Sequence record: NC_054934.1
Length of the DNA stretch: 64,000 nt
From: Escherichia phage teqskov
Reading direction: 5' to 3' (one strand)
Part shown: piece after piece, positions 20,442-64,000 of the stretch
Numbering within the stretch: the first letter of the stretch is position 1
Layout: the number at the start of each line of letters is the position of its first letter
Position numbers and translations under genes: made by a program
Notes under the pieces: generated by a model
Database searches by the model: none
Seen by the model: only the letters and a program-made list of their open reading frames with translations
Told to the model about the DNA's origin: nothing

Positions 20442-20575
20442 GGTATCTAGGCCTTTCCGGGCCTCTCTGGGCATCATTTAGTTTATACCCTTTATAATAT
20501 ATTATCCTACCTTTTAATTGTCCCTCCTGACCCTAGAATTCCCTAAAACTTTTTAAAAAATTTTTTCACAAAACT

Positions 20576-20605
20576 GTTTACATCCCTGTTCTTCCATGGT
20601 ACTAT
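20576..20605 (+). promoter_or_regulatory. early promoter cassette (PeSL-like)
   Basis: ttttcacaaaactGTTTACa ... tgGTACTATacaactatcaactactgatacag; near-identical copy at 61825-61890. Confidence 0.55.
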
Positions 20606-20648
20606 ACAACTATCAACTACTGATACAGAAAACAATTTGGAGAATGAA

Positions 20649-35444: not shown

Positions 35445-35465
35445 TTTAAATTTTTTCACAAAATG

Positions 35466-35500
35466 GTTTACAAGCATAAAGCTTTGTGGTACTATACAAC
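35466..35500 (+). promoter_or_regulatory. early promoter cassette (PeSL-like)
   Basis: ttttcacaaaatgGTTTACa ... tgGTACTATacaactatcaactgatac. Confidence 0.55.
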
Positions 35501-35529
35501 TATCAACTGATACGGATTTGGAGAATAAA

Positions 35530-36498
35530 ATGAAAACTGTAACTATCAATAAGGGTATCTACTTCGGTAAAGAAATCTCTGGAACTTTTGAGCTCTTAGG
35601 CGAATGGTTCCCAGATAATGCTCCGGTAGATGCACAAGGAGATGGTAAAGTTTTTGTTGAAATTGACGGTAAGCGTCGCGGTGTTTGGGTTTACAAATCA
35701 GACATTTCATATGATGGTGTAAAAGTTGAAGAAGTTAAAGAATCGTATGAAGATATGAAAACCCGCATTAATAAAAGATTTAATGTTATGGGAATGATGA
35801 CGAATGGTATTATTAATGGAAATATTCGTTCATTAATTATCTCTGGCGCAGCAGGTATCGGTAAAACGTATTCTTTAGATAAAGCTTTAAATAAAGCAAA
35901 TGATATTGGATACATTGAATATAAAAGCATTAACGGTAAAATCTCCGGTATCGGTCTTTATGAACAGCTTTGGAATAATCGTGAAGAGAATTCTGTCCTT
36001 TTGATTGATGATGTGGATGTTTTCTCTGATATGGACATTCTTAATCTTCTGAAAGCTGCTCTGGACACTGGAGAGACCCGTAAAGTCTGCTGGAGCACTG
36101 CATCTTCTTACTTGGAAGAAAAAGGCATTGACCGTGAGTTTGAATTTAAAGGAACGATTGTTTTTATCACAAACGTTGACATTGACCGCGAATTAGACCG
36201 TGGTACTAAACTTGCTCCACATTTACAAGCATTAGTGTCCCGCTCGGTTTATTTGGATTTGGGTGTTCACACTAATGAAGAAATTATGGTCAGGGTTGAA
36301 GATGTTATTCTTTCAACTGACATGATGCAAAAGCGCGGTCTTTCTGATGAAGAAACTTATAAAGCATTATCATGGATGAAAGTCAATGTTAATCGTTTAC
36401 GCAATGTTTCACTGCGTACTGCTCTTTATCTTGCTGACTTTATTATGACCGACAAAAATGGTTGGGAAGAAATTGCTGAGGTTACTCTTCTGAAATAA
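35530..36498 (+). CDS. P-loop ATPase (AAA-like)
   Basis: 322 aa from ATG after SD GGAG; Walker A GAAGIGKT, Walker B VLLIDDVD, sensor-like TIVFITN. Confidence 0.55.
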   Translation: MKTVTINKGIYFGKEISGTFELLGEWFPDNAPVDAQGDGKVFVEIDGKRRGVWVYKSDISYDGVKVEEVKESYEDMKTRINKRFNVMGMMTNGIINGNIRSLIISGAAGIGKTYSLDKALNKANDIGYIEYKSINGKISGIGLYEQLWNNREENSVLLIDDVDVFSDMDILNLLKAALDTGETRKVCWSTASSYLEEKGIDREFEFKGTIVFITNVDIDRELDRGTKLAPHLQALVSRSVYLDLGVHTNEEIMVRVEDVILSTDMMQKRGLSDEETYKALSWMKVNVNRLRNVSLRTALYLADFIMTDKNGWEEIAEVTLLK

Positions 36499-36599: not shown

Positions 36600-36902
36600 A
36601 TGTTATACTCAAAGGCTCGTGAAATTTACGAAACTAAAATTAAAGAAGCAGTATTTCAGTTCGCAACGACAATGCGTTGGACAAATGACTGGGAGTATTC
36701 AAAAAATCATAAGAAGCCCATGGTGACAAGAAAGGCTCATATGTTAGTGTTAATAGACCGTGAGCAGATTAAAGCCCGAGAAGCCCTCCAGAATCATAAA
36801 AAGGCTGCCTTTGAATGGTTTATGGATAACACTGCTCCTGAGACTAAGAAAGCGGTAAGTGCATGGTTCAGTGGAAAAAATTGTGAAAGAAGTTTCTTTT
36901 AG
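36600..36902 (+). CDS. hypothetical protein
   Basis: 100 aa from ATG 5 nt after GGAGG. Confidence 0.45.
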   Translation: MLYSKAREIYETKIKEAVFQFATTMRWTNDWEYSKNHKKPMVTRKAHMLVLIDREQIKAREALQNHKKAAFEWFMDNTAPETKKAVSAWFSGKNCERSFF

Positions 36903-36904
36903 TG

Positions 36905-36940
36905 GTTTACAAGACTGTTCCTCTGTGGTACTATACAACT
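36905..36940 (+). promoter_or_regulatory. early promoter cassette
   Basis: GTTTACaagactgttcctctgtgGTACTATacaactatcaactac, same core as 61842-61890. Confidence 0.55.
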
Positions 36941-36962
36941 ATCAACTACGGAGGAACACAAA

Positions 36963-47498: not shown

Positions 47499-47569
47499 CG
47501 CATTCTGTATATTACCATTCTAAGCTATCGTTCCCTTCTTGTCATTCCCTAAAATATTTTCACAAAGTT

Positions 47570-47599
47570 GTTTACAAGAAGTTCAAACCGTGGTATTAT
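47570..47599 (+). promoter_or_regulatory. early promoter cassette
   Basis: cattccctaaaatattttcacaaagttGTTTACaag ... tgGTATTATtaacat. Confidence 0.5.
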
Positions 47600-47629
47600 T
47601 AACATATGAATTACCTTTGAGGAATTGAT

Positions 47630-59027: not shown

Positions 59028-61724
59028 ATGAAAGAATTTTATATCTCTATTGAAACAGTCGGAAATAACATTGTTGAACGTTATATTGATGAAAACGGAA
59101 AGGAACGTACCCGTGAAGTAGAATATCTTCCGACTATGTTTAGGCATTGTAAGGAAGAGTCAAAATACAAAGACATCTATGGTAAAAACTGCGCTCCTCA
59201 AAAATTTCCATCAATGAAAGATGCTCGAGATTGGATGAAGCGAATGGAAGACATCGGTCTCGAAGCTCTCGGTATGAACGATTTTAAACTCGCTTATATC
59301 AGTGATACATATGGTTCAGAAATTGTTTATGACCGAAAATTTGTTCGTGTAGCTAACTGTGACATTGAGGTTACTGGTGATAAATTTCCTGACCCAATGA
59401 AAGCTGAATATGAAATTGATGCTATCACTCATTACGATTCAATTGATGACCGTTTTTATGTTTTCGACCTTTTGAATTCAATGTACGGTTCAGTATCAAA
59501 ATGGGATGCAAAGTTAGCTGCTAAGCTTGACTGTGAAGGTGGTGATGAAGTTCCTCAAGAAATTCTTGACCGAGTAATTTATATGCCATTCGATAATGAG
59601 CGTGATATGCTCATGGAATATATCAATCTCTGGGAACAGAAACGACCTGCTATTTTTACTGGTTGGAATATTGAGGGATTTGACGTTCCGTATATCATGA
59701 ATCGCGTTAAAATGGTTCTCGGTGAACGTAGTATGAAACGCTTCTCTCCAATCGGTCGAGTAAAATCTAAACTAATTCAAAATATGTACGGTAGCAAAGA
59801 AATTTATTCTATTGATGGCGTATCTATTCTTGATTATTTAGATTTGTACAAGAAATTCGCTTTTACTAATTTGCCGTCATTCTCTTTGGAATCAGTTGCT
59901 CAACATGAAACCAAAAAAGGTAAATTACCATACGACGGTCCTATTAATAAACTTCGTGAGACTAATCATCAACGATACATTAGTTATAACATCATTGACG
60001 TAGAATCAGTTCAAGCAATTGATAAAATTCGCGGGTTTATCGATCTAGTTTTAAGTATGTCTTATTACGCTAAAATGCCTTTTTCCGGTGTAATGAGTCC
60101 TATTAAAACCTGGGATGCCATTATTTTTAACTCATTGAAAGGTGAACATAAGGTTATTCCTCAACAAGGTTCGCACGTTAAACAGAGTTTTCCGGGTGCA
60201 TTCGTATTTGAACCTAAACCAATTGCTCGTCGATATATTATGAGTTTTGACTTGACGTCTCTGTATCCGAGCATTATTCGTCAGGTTAACATTAGTCCTG
60301 AGACTATTCGTGGTCAGTTTAAAGTTCATCCAATTCATGAATATATCGCAGGAACAGCTCCTAAACCGAGTGATGAATATTCTTGTTCTCCGAATGGATG
60401 GATGTACGATAAGCATCAAGAAGGTATCATTCCAAAGGAAATCGCTAAAGTATTTTTCCAGCGTAAAGATTGGAAAAAGAAAATGTTCGCTGAAGAAATG
60501 AATGCCGAAGCTATTAAAAAGATTATTATGAAAGGCGCAGGGTCTTGTTCAACTAAACCTGAAGTTGAACGATATGTTAAGTTCAGTGATGATTTCTTAA
60601 ATGAACTATCGAATTATACTGAATCTGTTCTCAATAGTTTGATTGAAGAATGTGAAAAAGCGGCTACACTTGCTAACACAAATCAGCTGAACCGTAAAAT
60701 TCTTATTAACAGCCTTTACGGTGCTCTTGGTAATATTCATTTCCGTTACTATGATTTGCGAAATGCTACTGCTATCACAATTTTCGGCCAAGTTGGTATT
60801 CAGTGGATTGCTCGTAAAATTAATGAGTATCTGAATAAAGTATGTGGAACTAATGGCGAAGATTTCATCGCAGCAGGTGATACTGATTCGGTATATGTTT
60901 GTGTAGATAAAGTTATTGAAAAAGTTGGTCTTGACCGATTCAAAGAGCAGAACGATTTAGTTGAATTCATGAATCAGTTCGGTAAGAAAAAGATGGAACC
61001 TATGATTGATGTTGCATATCGTGAGTTATGTGATTATATGAATAACCGCGAGCATCTGATGCATATGGACCGTGAAGCTATTTCTTGCCCTCCACTTGGT
61101 TCAAAGGGCGTTGGTGGATTTTGGAAAGCGAAAAAGCGTTATGCTCTGAACGTATATGATATGGAAGATAAGCGATTTGCTGAACCGCATTTAAAAATCA
61201 TGGGTATGGAAACTCAGCAGAGTTCAACGCCTAAAGCGGTCCAAGAAGCTCTCGAAGAAAGTATTCGTCGTATTCTTCAGGAAGGTGAAGAGTCTGTCCA
61301 AGAATATTACAAGAACTTCGAGAAAGAATATCGTCAACTTGACTATAAAGTTATTGCTGAAGTAAAAACTGCGAACGATATAGCGAAATATGATGATAAA
61401 GGTTGGCCAGGATTTAAATGTCCGTTCCATATTCGTGGTGTGCTAACTTATCGTCGAGCTGTTAGCGGTTTAGGTGTAGCTCCAATTTTGGATGGAAATA
61501 AAGTAATGGTTCTTCCATTGCGTGAAGGAAATCCATTTGGTGACAAATGCATTGCTTGGCCGTCGGGTACAGAACTTCCAAAAGAAATTCGTTCTGACGT
61601 ACTGTCTTGGATTGACTACTCAACTTTGTTCCAAAAATCGTTTGTTAAACCGCTTGCAGGCATGTGTGAATCGGCTGGTATGGACTATGAAGAAAAAGCT
61701 TCGTTAGACTTCCTGTTTGGCTGA
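59028..61724 (+). CDS. 43: DNA polymerase gp43 (family B)
   Basis: 898 aa; exo motif FDIE, polymerase motifs DLTSLYPS and AAGDTDSVY; near-identical to remembered T4 gp43. Confidence 0.95.
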   Translation: MKEFYISIETVGNNIVERYIDENGKERTREVEYLPTMFRHCKEESKYKDIYGKNCAPQKFPSMKDARDWMKRMEDIGLEALGMNDFKLAYISDTYGSEIVYDRKFVRVANCDIEVTGDKFPDPMKAEYEIDAITHYDSIDDRFYVFDLLNSMYGSVSKWDAKLAAKLDCEGGDEVPQEILDRVIYMPFDNERDMLMEYINLWEQKRPAIFTGWNIEGFDVPYIMNRVKMVLGERSMKRFSPIGRVKSKLIQNMYGSKEIYSIDGVSILDYLDLYKKFAFTNLPSFSLESVAQHETKKGKLPYDGPINKLRETNHQRYISYNIIDVESVQAIDKIRGFIDLVLSMSYYAKMPFSGVMSPIKTWDAIIFNSLKGEHKVIPQQGSHVKQSFPGAFVFEPKPIARRYIMSFDLTSLYPSIIRQVNISPETIRGQFKVHPIHEYIAGTAPKPSDEYSCSPNGWMYDKHQEGIIPKEIAKVFFQRKDWKKKMFAEEMNAEAIKKIIMKGAGSCSTKPEVERYVKFSDDFLNELSNYTESVLNSLIEECEKAATLANTNQLNRKILINSLYGALGNIHFRYYDLRNATAITIFGQVGIQWIARKINEYLNKVCGTNGEDFIAAGDTDSVYVCVDKVIEKVGLDRFKEQNDLVEFMNQFGKKKMEPMIDVAYRELCDYMNNREHLMHMDREAISCPPLGSKGVGGFWKAKKRYALNVYDMEDKRFAEPHLKIMGMETQQSSTPKAVQEALEESIRRILQEGEESVQEYYKNFEKEYRQLDYKVIAEVKTANDIAKYDDKGWPGFKCPFHIRGVLTYRRAVSGLGVAPILDGNKVMVLPLREGNPFGDKCIAWPSGTELPKEIRSDVLSWIDYSTLFQKSFVKPLAGMCESAGMDYEEKASLDFLFG

Positions 61725-61736
61725 TAGAATAAATCT

Positions 61737-61758
61737 AGGGACCTCCGGGTCCCTTTTT
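61737..61758 (+). terminator. rho-independent terminator
   Basis: agggaccTCCGggtccct followed by TTTTT. Confidence 0.7.
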
Positions 61759-61841
61759 CATACAAGTAATATAAATCTATACTTATGAAAAACAGATGAT
61801 TCTGGACCTTTAGAATTCCCTAAAAAATTTTTCACAAAACT

Positions 61842-61871
61842 GTTTACAAGACTGTTCCTCTGTGGTATTAT
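61842..61871 (+). promoter_or_regulatory. early promoter cassette (PeSL-like)
   Basis: tagaattccctaaaaaattttttcacaaaactGTTTACaag ... tgGTATTATacaactatcaactactgatacag. Confidence 0.55.
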
Positions 61872-61908
61872 ACAACTATCAACTACTGATACAGATTTGG
61901 AGAATAAA

Positions 61909-62145
61909 ATGAAAATTGTTATGGGATGCTTAGCAGTTTGTTTAGTTGCATTAGCAGCAGTTCCATTTGTTAGTGTTGAAAATGATACTCAACCTGTGAT
62001 TGAATCTAGCACCGTTATTCACACTAATGGTAAAATATCAGTTAAAATTGATGATAATCTTCATGTGAATACAAATGGATCTTTAGGTGTGCAAATGGGT
62101 AATACCTGCATAAGCACTACTGGAGTAATTACTACTTGCATTTGA
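61909..62145 (+). CDS. small secreted protein
   Basis: 78 aa from ATG after SD GGAG; N-terminal signal-like MKIVMGCLAVCLVALAAVPF. Confidence 0.5.
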   Translation: MKIVMGCLAVCLVALAAVPFVSVENDTQPVIESSTVIHTNGKISVKIDDNLHVNTNGSLGVQMGNTCISTTGVITTCI

Positions 62146-62155
62146 GGAAATTATT

Positions 62156-62536
62156 ATGAAAATCGCTATTTTGGTTATTGCATTAGGTCTTACTGGTTGT
62201 GTAGCTCAAGGACCGGTAGTAAATCAGTCTGATGTAGGAAAAATTGTAAACTGTTCAAGCAAATTTTATAATCCTAATGTCAAGTGTTATAAAGAAGCTC
62301 CAAAGCAAACAGTCGAACAAATGCAGGCGAATTTTGACGAAGCTATTCGTCCAGATGAATCTGCTCAAGCATATCGTAATTCTGATGTAATTACACGCGA
62401 AGAAAAAATTGAAAACTACTGCGCCGAAATTTGGGCTAATTGGGCTAATAATTACCAATGGCGTACTGGTAAAAATGCTCCGATGGAGTATGTAGTGAAT
62501 TCTTATAATTCATGTGTAAAAAATTTGACTAAGTGA
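62156..62536 (+). CDS. predicted lipoprotein
   Basis: 126 aa; signal peptide with lipobox LTGC; several Cys in mature part. Confidence 0.55.
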   Translation: MKIAILVIALGLTGCVAQGPVVNQSDVGKIVNCSSKFYNPNVKCYKEAPKQTVEQMQANFDEAIRPDESAQAYRNSDVITREEKIENYCAEIWANWANNYQWRTGKNAPMEYVVNSYNSCVKNLTK

Positions 62537-62543
62537 GGAAAAC

Positions 62544-62795
62544 ATGGAAACTTTAGTAGCAGGTTCAATTTTTATGGTTTTAGTTTCAGGCGTGTTGGCT
62601 ATTATTATATACATGCTTCCATGGTTTATCGCCTTGATGCGTGGGTCAAAATCGACAGTAGGAATCTTTTTCACATCTTTACTGTTTAACTGGTCAATTA
62701 TTGGTTGGTTTATTACATTTATTTGGTCAATTGCGGGTGAAACTAAAAAATCTGTACAGCAAAATCAAGTAATTATCATCAGAGAGAAGGAATGA
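62544..62795 (+). CDS. imm: superinfection immunity protein Imm
   Basis: 83 aa two-TM protein; size and position upstream of gene 42. Confidence 0.75.
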   Translation: METLVAGSIFMVLVSGVLAIIIYMLPWFIALMRGSKSTVGIFFTSLLFNWSIIGWFITFIWSIAGETKKSVQQNQVIIIREKE

Positions 62796-62941
62796 AAAGC
62801 AAAATTTTAGCAGTATTGCTTTTAATCTTGATGATTATAATAAGTATATACTATAGCGTAACAGTTCCTCTTATGATTCCGCCACTTATTATAGGTTGGA
62901 GTTTATTACTGTTACAAGTTAAATATGAATGCATCAATTGA
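62792..62941 (+). CDS. small membrane protein
   Basis: 49 aa hydrophobic ORF found by hand; ATG overlaps imm stop. Confidence 0.4.
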   Translation: MKSKILAVLLLILMIIISIYYSVTVPLMIPPLIIGWSLLLLQVKYECIN

Positions 62942-62948
62942 GGTTTAA

Positions 62949-63689
62949 ATGATTAACGATTATATGACAGTTGAAGAAATCCGTCTTGATTTGGGTCTTG
63001 CATTAAAGGAAAAAGATTTCGTAATTGATAAAACCGGTGTTAAAACTATTGAAATTATTGGTGCATCATTTGTAGCAGATGAACCTTTTATTTTTGGCGC
63101 TCTTAATGATGAATACATTCAGCGTGAACTTGAATGGTATAAATCTAAGAGCTTGTTTGTTAAAGATATTCCAGGTGAAACACCAAAGATTTGGCAGCAG
63201 GTAGCATCTTCTAAAGGCGAAATTAATTCGAATTATGGTTGGGCCATCTGGTCAGAAGATAACTATGCCCAATATGATATGTGTTTAGCTGAACTTGGTC
63301 AAAATCCTGATTCTCGACGTGGTATCATGATTTATACTCGTCCATCTATGCAGTTTGACTACAACAAAGACGGCATGTCAGATTTCATGTGTACGAATAC
63401 AGTACAGTACCTGATTCGTGATAAGAAAGTTAATGCAGTAGTAAGCATGCGTTCAAATGACGTGGTCTTCGGATTCCGTAATGATTATGCATGGCAAAAA
63501 TACGTATTAGATAAATTAGTATCTGATTTGAATGCAGGCGATTCAACTCGTCAGTATAAAGCAGGTTCTATTATATGGAATGTTGGAAGTCTTCATGTAT
63601 ATTCTCGTCATTTTTACTTGGTTGATCATTGGTGGAATACTGGCGAAACTCATATTGTGAAAAAAGATTATAACGGTGAGTGGAAATGA
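62949..63689 (+). CDS. 42: dCMP hydroxymethylase gp42
   Basis: 246 aa; thymidylate-synthase-like fold; matches remembered T4 gp42. Confidence 0.9.
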   Translation: MINDYMTVEEIRLDLGLALKEKDFVIDKTGVKTIEIIGASFVADEPFIFGALNDEYIQRELEWYKSKSLFVKDIPGETPKIWQQVASSKGEINSNYGWAIWSEDNYAQYDMCLAELGQNPDSRRGIMIYTRPSMQFDYNKDGMSDFMCTNTVQYLIRDKKVNAVVSMRSNDVVFGFRNDYAWQKYVLDKLVSDLNAGDSTRQYKAGSIIWNVGSLHVYSRHFYLVDHWWNTGETHIVKKDYNGEWK

Positions 63690-64000
63690 TTCAATTCGTA
63701 ATTCCGAGCTATCAACGTGTAGGGGCAGTTTCTGCCCTTGATATGTTTCCGACTGATTATGAACCTCATATCGTAGTACGTGAACATGAAGAAAAAGCTT
63801 ATTATGACGCCTATGGGTCTAGAGCTAAAATTATAACTATTCCTGATGATGTAAACGGAATTGCCGGTACTCGTAAAGCAATTACTGATATGTATGCAGG
63901 TCAACGAATCTGGATGATTGACGATGATACTACTATTCGTATGAGTTCAATGCGAAAAAGAGATGATCGTCGTTGCGTAGATAAAGTCAATCAATTGACT
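63686..64000 (+). CDS. glycosyltransferase, N-terminal fragment (runs off window end); not T4 beta-gt-like
   Basis: ATG overlaps gp42 stop; DXD-type motif WMIDDDT; sits in the beta-gt position but N-terminus unlike remembered T4 beta-gt. Confidence 0.6.
   Translation, partial: MIQFVIPSYQRVGAVSALDMFPTDYEPHIVVREHEEKAYYDAYGSRAKIITIPDDVNGIAGTRKAITDMYAGQRIWMIDDDTTIRMSSMRKRDDRRCVDKVNQLT

What the first reader, a model, noticed from the sequence alone, without database searches (positions are those of the whole stretch)
61737..62536. Secreted protein plus lipoprotein cassette inserted between DNA polymerase and imm
After gene 43 come a strong terminator, a full promoter cassette, then two genes: a 78-aa protein with a signal-like N-terminus and a 126-aa protein with a lipobox (LTGC) and several cysteines. 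They sit immediately upstream of imm, the membrane protein that blocks superinfecting DNA. Phage lipoproteins next to immunity genes are often superinfection-exclusion or receptor-masking factors.
Basis: inference. Interest (0 to 1): 0.55.

Follow-up and report, generated by a model that had tools for sequence, protein, structure and literature searches.

The report
T4 imm.1 lipoprotein plus accessory ORF
The lipoprotein gene is the long-known but never-tested T4 gene imm.1, which always sits directly in front of the superinfection-immunity gene imm, and the small gene before it is an optional extra that many T4 relatives lack, so the finding is real but mostly ordinary, with one testable lead.

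Summary
After gene 43 there is a strong terminator, an early-promoter cassette and two real genes. One encodes a 78-aa exported or anchored protein. The other encodes a 126-aa protein with an LTGC lipobox.

It is not a two-gene inserted cassette. The 126-aa gene is T4 imm.1 (Pfam DUF5481, 98% identical to T4). It is present in all about 500 Tequatrovirus and 155 Mosigvirus records, and is under very strong purifying selection (dN/dS 0.02-0.06).

Only the 78-aa ORF (phrog_4189) is an indel. It is present in about 320 of 500 Tequatrovirus records and absent from T4. It sits behind a repeated promoter/stem-loop (PeSL-type) cassette. A Dhakavirus carries it at an unrelated position.

The main new point is linkage. 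In all 17 imm.1 loci examined, covering five lineages below about 55% identity and two genome neighbourhoods, imm.1 lies 7-64 nt upstream of imm.

Receptor masking is unlikely, because Imm.1 is 97.6-100% identical in T2, T4 and a Yersinia phage.

My best guess (about 0.4) is a periplasmic accessory of T-even superinfection exclusion. It is not essential: Imm works alone from a plasmid, and about 350 phage records carry imm without imm.1. The function is untested.

The parts
59028..61724 (+). Gene 43, DNA polymerase (context; upstream boundary)
   Evidence: 898-aa ORF. Annotated as DNA polymerase in every matching record.
61737..61759 (+). Intrinsic terminator: 7-bp stem GGGACCT/AGGTCCC-type hairpin followed by a T run. 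It is also the stem-loop part of a PeSL-type cassette.
   Evidence: Pattern scan. Fold of -13.9 kcal/mol, z = -4.1. Annotated as a terminator in phages NR1 and Lutter.
61822..61895 (+). T4-type early promoter cassette: A/T-rich upstream stretch, -35 TTTACA at 61843-61848, TG-extended -10 TATTAT at 61866-61871, and a conserved 5' leader.
   Evidence: Promoter scan, 10 of 12 matches. It is one of 5 copies of a 74-nt repeat family in this window (20556, 35446, 36885, 47550, 61822), 89% identical to the copy at 20556. BLAST finds 7-10 places per phage genome. The layout matches the PeSL description in PMC4122927.
61909..62145 (+). ORF78: accessory gene for a small exported or membrane-anchored beta-rich protein. 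Residues 3-23 are hydrophobic, with a conserved LVALAAVPF (A-L-A motif). The conserved C-terminus is GNTCxSTTGxxxTC, with C67 and C77 invariant.
   Evidence: phrog_4189 4e-30, no Pfam match. 324 phage records. dN/dS 0.17-0.3. Alignment conservation. AF2 model of low confidence: helix 5-16 followed by six short strands.
61909..61916 (+). ATGAAAAT, the first copy of the 8-nt direct repeat that brackets the ORF78 indel. The second copy is at 62156-62163, the imm.1 start.
   Evidence: Alignment with T4. T4 joins the same leader and SD directly to the imm.1 coding sequence at ATGAAAAT.
62156..62536 (+). imm.1 (T4 NP_049661 homologue, Pfam DUF5481): predicted lipoprotein precursor. Signal peptide at residues 1-14, lipobox LTGC at nt 62189-62200, and Val at +2. 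The mature part is a flexible tether followed by a helical domain with the C89-C120 pair.
   Evidence: PF17578 1.7e-71 and phrog_1754 3e-44. 98.4% identical to T4. Lipobox and cysteines. AF2 helices 81-104 and 110-125 at pLDDT 84-89.
62544..62795 (+). imm, the superinfection immunity inner-membrane protein. It is the invariant downstream partner of imm.1.
   Evidence: PF14373 7.8e-16 and phrog_1039. 96% identical to T4 Imm.
62792..62941 (+). ORF49 (called '42.1' in some records): a small protein with two hydrophobic segments. Its start overlaps the imm stop (ATGA).
   Evidence: phrog_3610 1.2e-24. 746 phage records. Intact but unannotated in RefSeq T4. Labelled 42.1 in T4T and RB32.
62949..63689 (+). 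Gene 42, dCMP hydroxymethylase (context; downstream boundary)
   Evidence: 246-aa ORF. 95-100% identical to annotated gp42.

Best explanation
The interval holds two independent things.

(1) imm.1. This is a conserved T-even early gene, read together with imm (and ORF49) from the early promoter at 61843-61871. Its product is exported, lipid-modified at Cys15 and, because residue +2 is Val rather than Asp, probably sent to the inner face of the outer membrane. There a flexible tether of about 16 residues would hold a small disulfide-stabilised helical domain in the periplasm. I propose that this domain is an accessory component of T-even superinfection exclusion, or of envelope protection against secondary adsorption. 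It would act in the periplasm on something invariant, most likely an exposed part of the incoming tail tip (gp5/gp27 hub, tube end, or the ejected tape-measure protein gp29). It would complement Imm, which blocks gp29 at the inner membrane, and Spackle, which blocks the gp5 lysozyme.

(2) ORF78. This is an optional cargo gene that sits directly behind a repeated terminator-promoter (PeSL-type) cassette. It was gained or lost by recombination at the short repeat ATGAAAAT. It encodes a small exported or N-terminally anchored beta-rich protein of unknown role, and it is not functionally tied to imm.1.

Shown here: gene identity, export signals, selection, linkage and distribution. Inferred: localisation, the target and any effect on exclusion. 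The confidence of 0.4 refers to the proposed exclusion-accessory function; the identity of the genes is near-certain.
For: Identity:
- PF17578 match at 1.7e-71.
- 98.4% identical to T4 Imm.1, at the same position between genes 43 and imm.

Export:
- Lipobox LTGC with K2 and C15.
- The lipobox is kept in 4 of 5 lineages below about 55% identity, with +2 = V, A, G or V. The fifth lineage (P0018) has a Sec-type signal, AHA|SD, instead. The periplasmic domain is therefore what is conserved.
- C89 and C120 are invariant. C33 and C44 are present or absent together, as expected for disulfides in an oxidising compartment.

Selection:
- dN/dS of 0.02-0.06 within Tequatrovirus.

Linkage:
- imm lies 7-64 nt downstream in 17 of 17 loci.
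- These include the metagenomic lineages L006, L007/L008 and L009.
- They also include Mosigvirus, where the pair has moved to the dmd-sp region and lies next to spackle.
- The family is very narrow: 6 representatives among 1.84 billion proteins. No member was seen without imm.

Co-divergence:
- In backbones where the gp43 C-terminus and gp42 stay 80-91% identical, Imm.1 drops to 29-55% and Imm to 34-82%.

Literature:
- Imm binds the tape-measure protein gp29 (bioRxiv 10.64898/2026.03.06.709160).
- A review states that Imm alone gives insufficient immunity and needs another membrane protein (PMC9952470).

ORF78 independence:
- Present in about 318-324 of roughly 500 Tequatrovirus records.
- Absent from T4.
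- The slot is empty in L007 and L009, and holds an FRD3-like ORF in L006.
- A homologue, with the same leader, lies near e/denV in the Dhakavirus dhabil.
- The promoter cassette is repeated 5 times in the window.
Against: - No experiment on imm.1 was found.
- Plasmid-borne Imm alone excludes T4 (also Lu and Henning 1989, from memory), so Imm.1 is not required.
- About 350 phage records carry imm without imm.1 (1009 records against 655). In JS98, imm follows gene 43 directly.
- An outer-membrane anchor would keep Imm.1 away from inner-membrane Imm, so direct partnership is doubtful.
- Adjacency could reflect only a shared early promoter for envelope proteins.
- The structure model is mediocre (pLDDT 64.5) and has no informative fold match.
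- There is no similarity to Spackle beyond the signal peptide.
- ORF49, an integral membrane protein translationally coupled to imm, is at least as good a candidate for the partner of Imm.
Confidence: 0.4

Rival explanations
1. Imm.1 has an envelope function unrelated to superinfection exclusion. Examples are tuning lysis timing or lysis inhibition, stabilising the envelope of the infected cell, or countering a host periplasmic or outer-membrane factor. On this view it sits next to imm only because T4 groups small early envelope proteins in one transcription unit.
For: - Four consecutive genes here (ORF78, imm.1, imm, ORF49) all encode predicted envelope proteins behind one early promoter.
- Imm works without Imm.1.
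- Many phages carry imm alone.
- Imm.1 has no recognisable functional domain.
Against: - The pair stayed together when it moved to a different genome region in Mosigvirus, where it lies beside sp, the other exclusion gene.
- No imm.1 homologue was found without imm in 17 loci, or in any of the representative clusters of an exhaustive search.
Confidence: 0.3
2. Receptor masking. Imm.1 would be an Llp/Cor-like outer-membrane lipoprotein that binds the phage's own outer-membrane receptor from the periplasmic side. This would block adsorption of further phages and inactivation of progeny on cell debris.
For: - Predicted outer-membrane lipoprotein expressed early.
- This is the same general design as T5 Llp, whose mechanism is described in PMC9586334 (listed).
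Against: - Imm.1 is 97.6% (T2), 98.4% (T4) and 100% (Yersinia phage phiD1) identical to the window protein. T2 and T4 use different receptors (FadL/OmpF against OmpC/LPS; textbook knowledge), so a receptor-specific binder should differ between them.
- It is not adjacent to any receptor-binding-protein gene, whereas llp lies next to the pb5 gene.
- It shows no sequence similarity to any named family other than DUF5481.
- One lineage has lost the lipid anchor.
Confidence: 0.07
3. ORF78 and imm.1 form one functional two-gene cassette, a secreted protein plus a lipoprotein working together, inserted as a unit.
For: They are adjacent, 10 nt apart, behind the same promoter, and both products are exported.
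Against: - T4, L007, L009 and Mosigvirus have imm.1 without ORF78.
- L006 has a different ORF in that slot.
- The Dhakavirus dhabil has ORF78 without imm.1 next to it.
- Evolutionary rates differ strongly: dN/dS 0.2-0.5 against 0.02-0.06.
Confidence: 0.04

Closest known systems
Bacteriophage T4 gene imm.1 (NP_049661; Pfam PF17578/DUF5481; UniProt-style name 'uncharacterized 14.1 kDa protein in Gp43-imm intergenic region')
   Same: Same gene. It is 98.4% identical at the protein level, in the same position between 43 and imm, and has the same leader and SD.
   Different: In this phage an extra ORF (ORF78) separates the promoter from imm.1. T4 has LAGC rather than LTGC and lacks the last residue.
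T4 Imm and Spackle, the two characterised T-even superinfection-exclusion proteins
   Same: They are early, small and envelope-located. imm is the invariant neighbour of imm.1. In Mosigvirus the order is imm.1-imm-sp. Like Spackle, mature Imm.1 is predicted to be a small helical periplasmic protein containing cysteines.
   Different: There is no sequence or profile similarity to either: Imm.1 does not match PF14373, and hhalign against Sp aligns only the signal peptide. No exclusion phenotype has been reported for imm.1.
T5 Llp and T1/phi80 Cor lipoproteins (receptor-blocking superinfection exclusion)
   Same: They are phage-encoded outer-membrane lipoproteins made early in infection.
   Different: Imm.1 has no homology to them, no linkage to a receptor-binding-protein gene, and no variation that tracks receptor usage.
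PeSL (promoter-early stem-loop) mobile regulatory cassettes of T4-type phages (PMC2839356, PMC4122927)
   Same: The stem-loop, A/T-rich stretch, -35/-10, SD and ATG have the described layout. There are multiple near-identical copies per genome. An ORF indel sits directly at the cassette.
   Different: The indel junction here is at the shared ATGAAAAT start-codon repeat. There is only one PeSL upstream of ORF78, not one on each side.

Membership tests
Pfam DUF5481 / T4 Imm.1 | Match to the family HMM above the gathering score, over its full length | tested here: met
   237.6 bits against a cutoff of 27. Residues 22-124 match profile positions 1-103 of 103.
Pfam DUF5481 / T4 Imm.1 | Position immediately upstream of imm | tested here: met
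   8-nt gap in the window. 17 of 17 related loci show the same arrangement.
Bacterial lipoprotein (signal peptidase II substrate) | Lipobox [LVI][ASTVI][GAS]C, with Cys at position 15-35 and K/R within the first 7 residues | tested here: met
   LTGC, C15, K2. Kept in 4 of 5 divergent lineages; one lineage has a Sec-type signal instead.
Bacterial lipoprotein (signal peptidase II substrate) | Actual lipid modification, globomycin-sensitive cleavage and outer-membrane sorting | not testable with these tools
   Only inferred, from the +2 rule (Val at +2).
Sec signal peptide, cleaved (ORF78) | n-, h- and c-regions with small residues at -3 and -1 | tested here: inconclusive
   K2, a hydrophobic stretch at 3-23 and a conserved A14-L-A16 motif are present. 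The 21-residue apolar stretch, and variants with 7-aa duplications, fit an uncleaved anchor equally well. No SignalP was available.
Imm_superinfect (PF14373); many GenBank records label Imm.1 'immunity protein' | Match to the Imm HMM or a multi-pass membrane core | tested here: not met
   No PF14373 hit for the 126-aa protein at E <= 1. It has no hydrophobic segment after the signal peptide.
Llp/Cor-type receptor-blocking lipoproteins | Homology, linkage to a receptor-binding-protein gene, and specificity for the phage's own receptor | tested here: not met
   No family match. Neighbours are gene 43 and imm. The sequence is near-identical in T2, T4 and phiD1.
Spackle (gp61.3) | Sequence or profile similarity of the mature domain | tested here: not met
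   hhalign aligns only 17 signal-peptide residues, probability 28%. There is no Spackle hit in the PDB fold search.
Iduronate sulfatase (the RefSeq T4 label for imm.1) | Sulfatase domain | tested here: not met
   No sulfatase family in Pfam or NCBIfam at E <= 1. The label appears.
PeSL cassette | Stem-loop followed by an early promoter, SD and ATG; repeated in the genome; located at ORF indels | tested here: met
   The definition is quoted from PMC4122927.

The most novel reading that the evidence does not exclude
Imm.1, possibly together with the overlooked 49-aa membrane protein ORF49/42.1, is the long-postulated 'other phage protein' that makes Imm-mediated exclusion fast and complete in infected cells. 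It would form a third, periplasmic arm of T-even superinfection exclusion that captures or mis-directs the ejected tape-measure or tail-tip complex before it reaches the inner membrane.
Probability: 0.2. Interest if true: 0.6.

Novelty: already known. Interest (0 to 1): 0.33.

Why it matters
T4 superinfection exclusion is a textbook system, and its mechanism is only now being resolved: Spackle-gp5 in 2020, and Imm-gp29 in a 2026 preprint. Reviews still repeat that Imm needs an unidentified partner. imm.1 is the one gene that never separates from imm in the T4 and RB69 groups. It encodes an exported protein under very strong selection, and it has never been tested. A simple deletion and co-expression experiment could close or open that question. 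Otherwise the region is a routine example of T4-type genome plasticity at a promoter/stem-loop cassette.

Tried and rejected
- **Fold recognition for Imm.1.** The AF2 model from a 6-sequence alignment has pLDDT 64.5. Foldseek against the PDB gave nothing below E = 2.5. BFVD returned only its own family.
- **Profile against PDB sequences.** Nothing for Imm.1 or ORF78.
- **ORF78 structure.** pLDDT 52.9, too poor for a fold search.
- **Other family libraries.** NCBIfam and PADLOC gave only noise.
- **Rfam on 61500-63000.** Only a sub-threshold snoRNA chance hit.
- **Homology searches for Imm.1.**
  - The word-indexed search gave only near-identical hits.
  - The exhaustive search showed that the family really is tiny.
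  - IMG/VR gave 7 loci, all of the two known types.
- **Literature.** 'DUF5481' gave 0 papers. 'imm.1' gave one phage paper, which merely lists it as a T4-group marker. Lu and Henning 1989 and Lu et al. 1993 are not held. The supplement of the PST/T4 comparison is not held either.
- **Remote homology of Imm.1 to Spackle.** Rejected.
- **ORF78 as a lipoprotein.** Rejected. Its cysteines at positions 7 and 11 lie too close to the N-terminus and have no proper lipobox. Only duplication variants create an LAAC motif.

Full report
**What the window is.** The region is 99.8% identical to many Tequatrovirus (T4-like) coliphage genomes. On the + strand the order is as follows:
- gene 43, DNA polymerase, 59028-61724
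- ORF78, 61909-62145
- a 126-aa ORF, 62156-62536
- imm, 62544-62795
- a 49-aa ORF, 62792-62941
- gene 42, 62949-63689

**Checking the observation.**
- Terminator: a 7-bp G+C-rich hairpin at 61737-61754 with a T run. It folds at -13.9 kcal/mol, z = -4.1, with no shuffle folding as well.
- Promoter: TTTACA, 17 nt, TATTAT with an extended-10 TG, at 61843-61871.
- Both ORFs have Shine-Dalgarno sequences.
- ORF78 has K2 followed by a 21-residue uncharged stretch.
- The 126-aa protein has lipobox LTGC with Cys15, plus four more cysteines.
- Both are real genes. They have PHROG families and hundreds of homologues, and both are under purifying selection:
  - ORF78: dN/dS 0.17-0.3, with dS up to 1.6 against the Dhakavirus copy.
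  - The 126-aa gene: dN/dS 0.02-0.06 at dS of about 0.16-0.2.

**What the 126-aa gene is.** It is T4 gene imm.1.
- It matches Pfam DUF5481 at 1.7e-71 over the whole profile.
- It is 98.4% identical to the T4 protein, which lies in the same place between 43 and imm.
- It is therefore not an insertion.
- Database labels for it are unreliable. RefSeq T4 calls it 'iduronate sulfatase', and many records call it 'immunity protein'.
- It has no sulfatase domain and does not match the Imm family.
- No paper in the library reports a function. The only mention lists it as a gene that distinguishes the T4 group from the RB69 group.

**How wide the family is.**
- tblastn finds it in 655 phage records: 500 at 95% identity or more (Tequatrovirus type) and 155 at about 33% (Mosigvirus, the RB69 group).
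- An exhaustive HMMER scan of 1.84 billion representative proteins found six clusters. Two are fragments of the T4 type. The other four are 32-46% identical to the window protein.
- IMG/VR added nothing new.
- It is therefore a very narrow family, specific to the Tevenvirinae.

**Conserved features of Imm.1 (alignment A1).**
- A YNPxxKxY motif and a YRxS motif are invariant.
- C89 and C120 are invariant.
- C33 and C44 are present together (T4 type, P0018) or absent together. That is what disulfide partners in an oxidising compartment would show.
- The lipobox is kept in four lineages (LTGC, LVGC, LTGC, TTGC). Residue +2 is V, A, G or V, never Asp. By the enterobacterial +2 rule (established knowledge) this predicts outer-membrane sorting.
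- One lineage (P0018) has an ordinary Sec signal...SAHA|SDK, and no lipobox. The periplasmic domain, not the anchor, is the constant.
- The AF2 model is only moderate (pLDDT 64.5). Residues 1-31 are disordered. A helical hairpin at 81-125 is confident (pLDDT 84-89) and brings C89 and C120 together.
- No informative fold or sequence match to solved or predicted structures was found.
- There is no similarity to Spackle beyond the signal peptide.

**Linkage to imm: the main result.** In all 17 loci I could examine, an Imm_superinfect gene follows imm.1 within 7-64 nt.
- This holds for the divergent metagenomic lineages L006, L007/L008 and L009.
- It also holds in Mosigvirus. There the pair is not next to gene 43 at all. 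It sits between dmd and sp in the 41-61 region, giving the order imm.1-imm-sp.
- The pair therefore moved as a unit.
- The reverse does not hold. Imm is found in 1009 phage records against 655 for Imm.1, and in the Dhakavirus JS98 imm follows gene 43 directly.
- In backbones where the gp43 C-terminus and gp42 remain 80-91% identical to the window, Imm.1 falls to 29-55% and Imm to 34-82%. The module evolves much faster than its surroundings between lineages, yet is almost frozen within Tequatrovirus.

**What ORF78 is.** It is an optional gene.
- It is present in about 318-324 of roughly 500 Tequatrovirus-type records and absent from T4, RB3, RB55 and RB68.
- Alignment with T4 shows that the 184-nt terminator-promoter-leader stretch is shared. 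In T4 the same leader and SD run straight into imm.1.
- The 247-nt difference is bracketed by ATGAAAAT, the start of both ORF78 and imm.1.
- The slot is empty in L007 and L009, and holds an unrelated FRD3-like 70-aa ORF in L006.
- A 60%-identical ORF78 homologue, with part of the same leader, lies in a different region (near e and denV) in the Dhakavirus dhabil.
- The promoter cassette is one of five copies of a 74-nt repeat in this window, up to 89% identical. BLAST finds 7-10 places per genome.
- This is the PeSL arrangement described for T4-type phages: stem-loop, A/T-rich stretch, -35/-10, SD and ATG, mediating ORF shuffling (PMC4122927; PMC2839356).
- The conserved parts of the protein are LVALAAVPF and the C-terminal NLHxNxNGxLGVQxGNTCxSTTGxxxTC, with C67 and C77 invariant.
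- The N-terminal cysteines are not conserved.
- Variants carry 7-residue tandem duplications of the hydrophobic segment.
- I cannot decide whether the N-terminus is cleaved after A-L-A16 or stays as an anchor.
- The structure model is poor: pLDDT 52.9, one helix followed by six short strands.
- No Pfam, NCBIfam, PADLOC or PDB relative was found.

**Mechanism.**
- Shown: imm.1 and imm form a conserved two-gene unit behind an early promoter, and Imm.1 carries an export signal and features typical of a periplasmic protein.
- From the literature: Imm binds the helical-bundle domain of the T4 tape-measure protein gp29 and blocks genome translocation at the inner membrane, and it works from a plasmid on its own (bioRxiv 10.64898/2026.03.06.709160).
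- From the literature: Spackle inhibits the gp5 lysozyme in the periplasm (PMC7677548).
- From the literature: one review states that Imm alone gives insufficient immunity and needs another membrane protein (PMC9952470).
- Inferred: Imm.1 is a periplasmic accessory of this exclusion or envelope-protection system, acting on an invariant target such as the incoming tail tip. I put this at about 0.4.
- Receptor masking is unlikely (about 0.07). The protein is 97.6-100% identical in T2, T4 and Yersinia phage phiD1, although T2 and T4 use different receptors (textbook knowledge). It is also not linked to an adhesin gene.
- A function unrelated to exclusion, with adjacency due only to operon organisation, remains a serious rival (about 0.3).
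- The idea of a joint ORF78+imm.1 cassette is contradicted by their independent distribution.

**Verdict.**
The link to immunity is plausible. The 'inserted cassette' and receptor-masking readings are not supported.
- The genes themselves are already known and annotated in hundreds of genomes, so novelty is low.
- The useful output is a sharpened, cheap-to-test hypothesis about imm.1, and about ORF49, as partners of Imm.

Noticed in passing
window 62792-62941 (+); T4 NC_000866.4 26230-26376 (-): A conserved 49-aa ORF with two hydrophobic segments (phrog_3610) starts at an ATGA overlap with the imm stop codon. It is intact in T4 (90% identical), but RefSeq T4 annotates that stretch as intergenic; T4T and RB32 records call it 42.1. 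It follows imm in divergent lineages at 50-53% identity and occurs in 746 phage records. It is a candidate membrane partner of Imm.
   Followed up: partly
window 20556-20629, 35446-35519, 36885-36958, 47550-47623, 61822-61895: Five copies of a 74-nt early-promoter and leader cassette (62-89% identical to the reference copy). Two of them (35506-35540 and 61885-61919) share a near-identical leader, SD and ATGAAAA start at 94% identity. These are PeSL-type recombination substrates.
   Followed up: partly
ORF78 homologues P0008, P0014, P0015 (window equivalent about 61939-61960): Natural variants carry one or two 7-residue (21-bp) tandem duplications of the hydrophobic segment CLVALAA. In the HY01 group this creates an L-A-A-C lipobox-like motif, and UniRef names that cluster 'Lipoprotein'.
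   Followed up: no
L006 450-662 (metagenomic contig SRR30535852_365571): In one T4-like lineage the slot between the gene 43 terminator and imm.1 holds a 70-aa FRD3-family ORF instead of ORF78. In the same lineage Imm.1 has a Sec-type signal instead of a lipobox.
   Followed up: partly
T4 RefSeq NC_000866.4 26636-27013 and derived records: imm.1 is labelled 'iduronate sulfatase' in RefSeq T4, and the label has spread to RB3, fPS-2 and JLBYU24. Other records call it 'immunity protein'. Neither label has domain support.
   Followed up: yes
window 63686-64000 (+), runs off the window end: The gene after 42 overlaps its stop codon. In close relatives it is an approximately 280-aa glucosyltransferase (Pfam TAGT in L009), followed directly by uvsX. 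T4 has beta-gt plus segA at this position, so the DNA-glucosylation module differs from T4.
   Followed up: no
L004 4237-4530 (Mosigvirus moha spackle): The Mosigvirus Spackle signal peptide ends in A-V-S-C, a lipobox-like motif. In this genus imm.1, imm and sp lie side by side as a single exclusion cluster.
   Followed up: no
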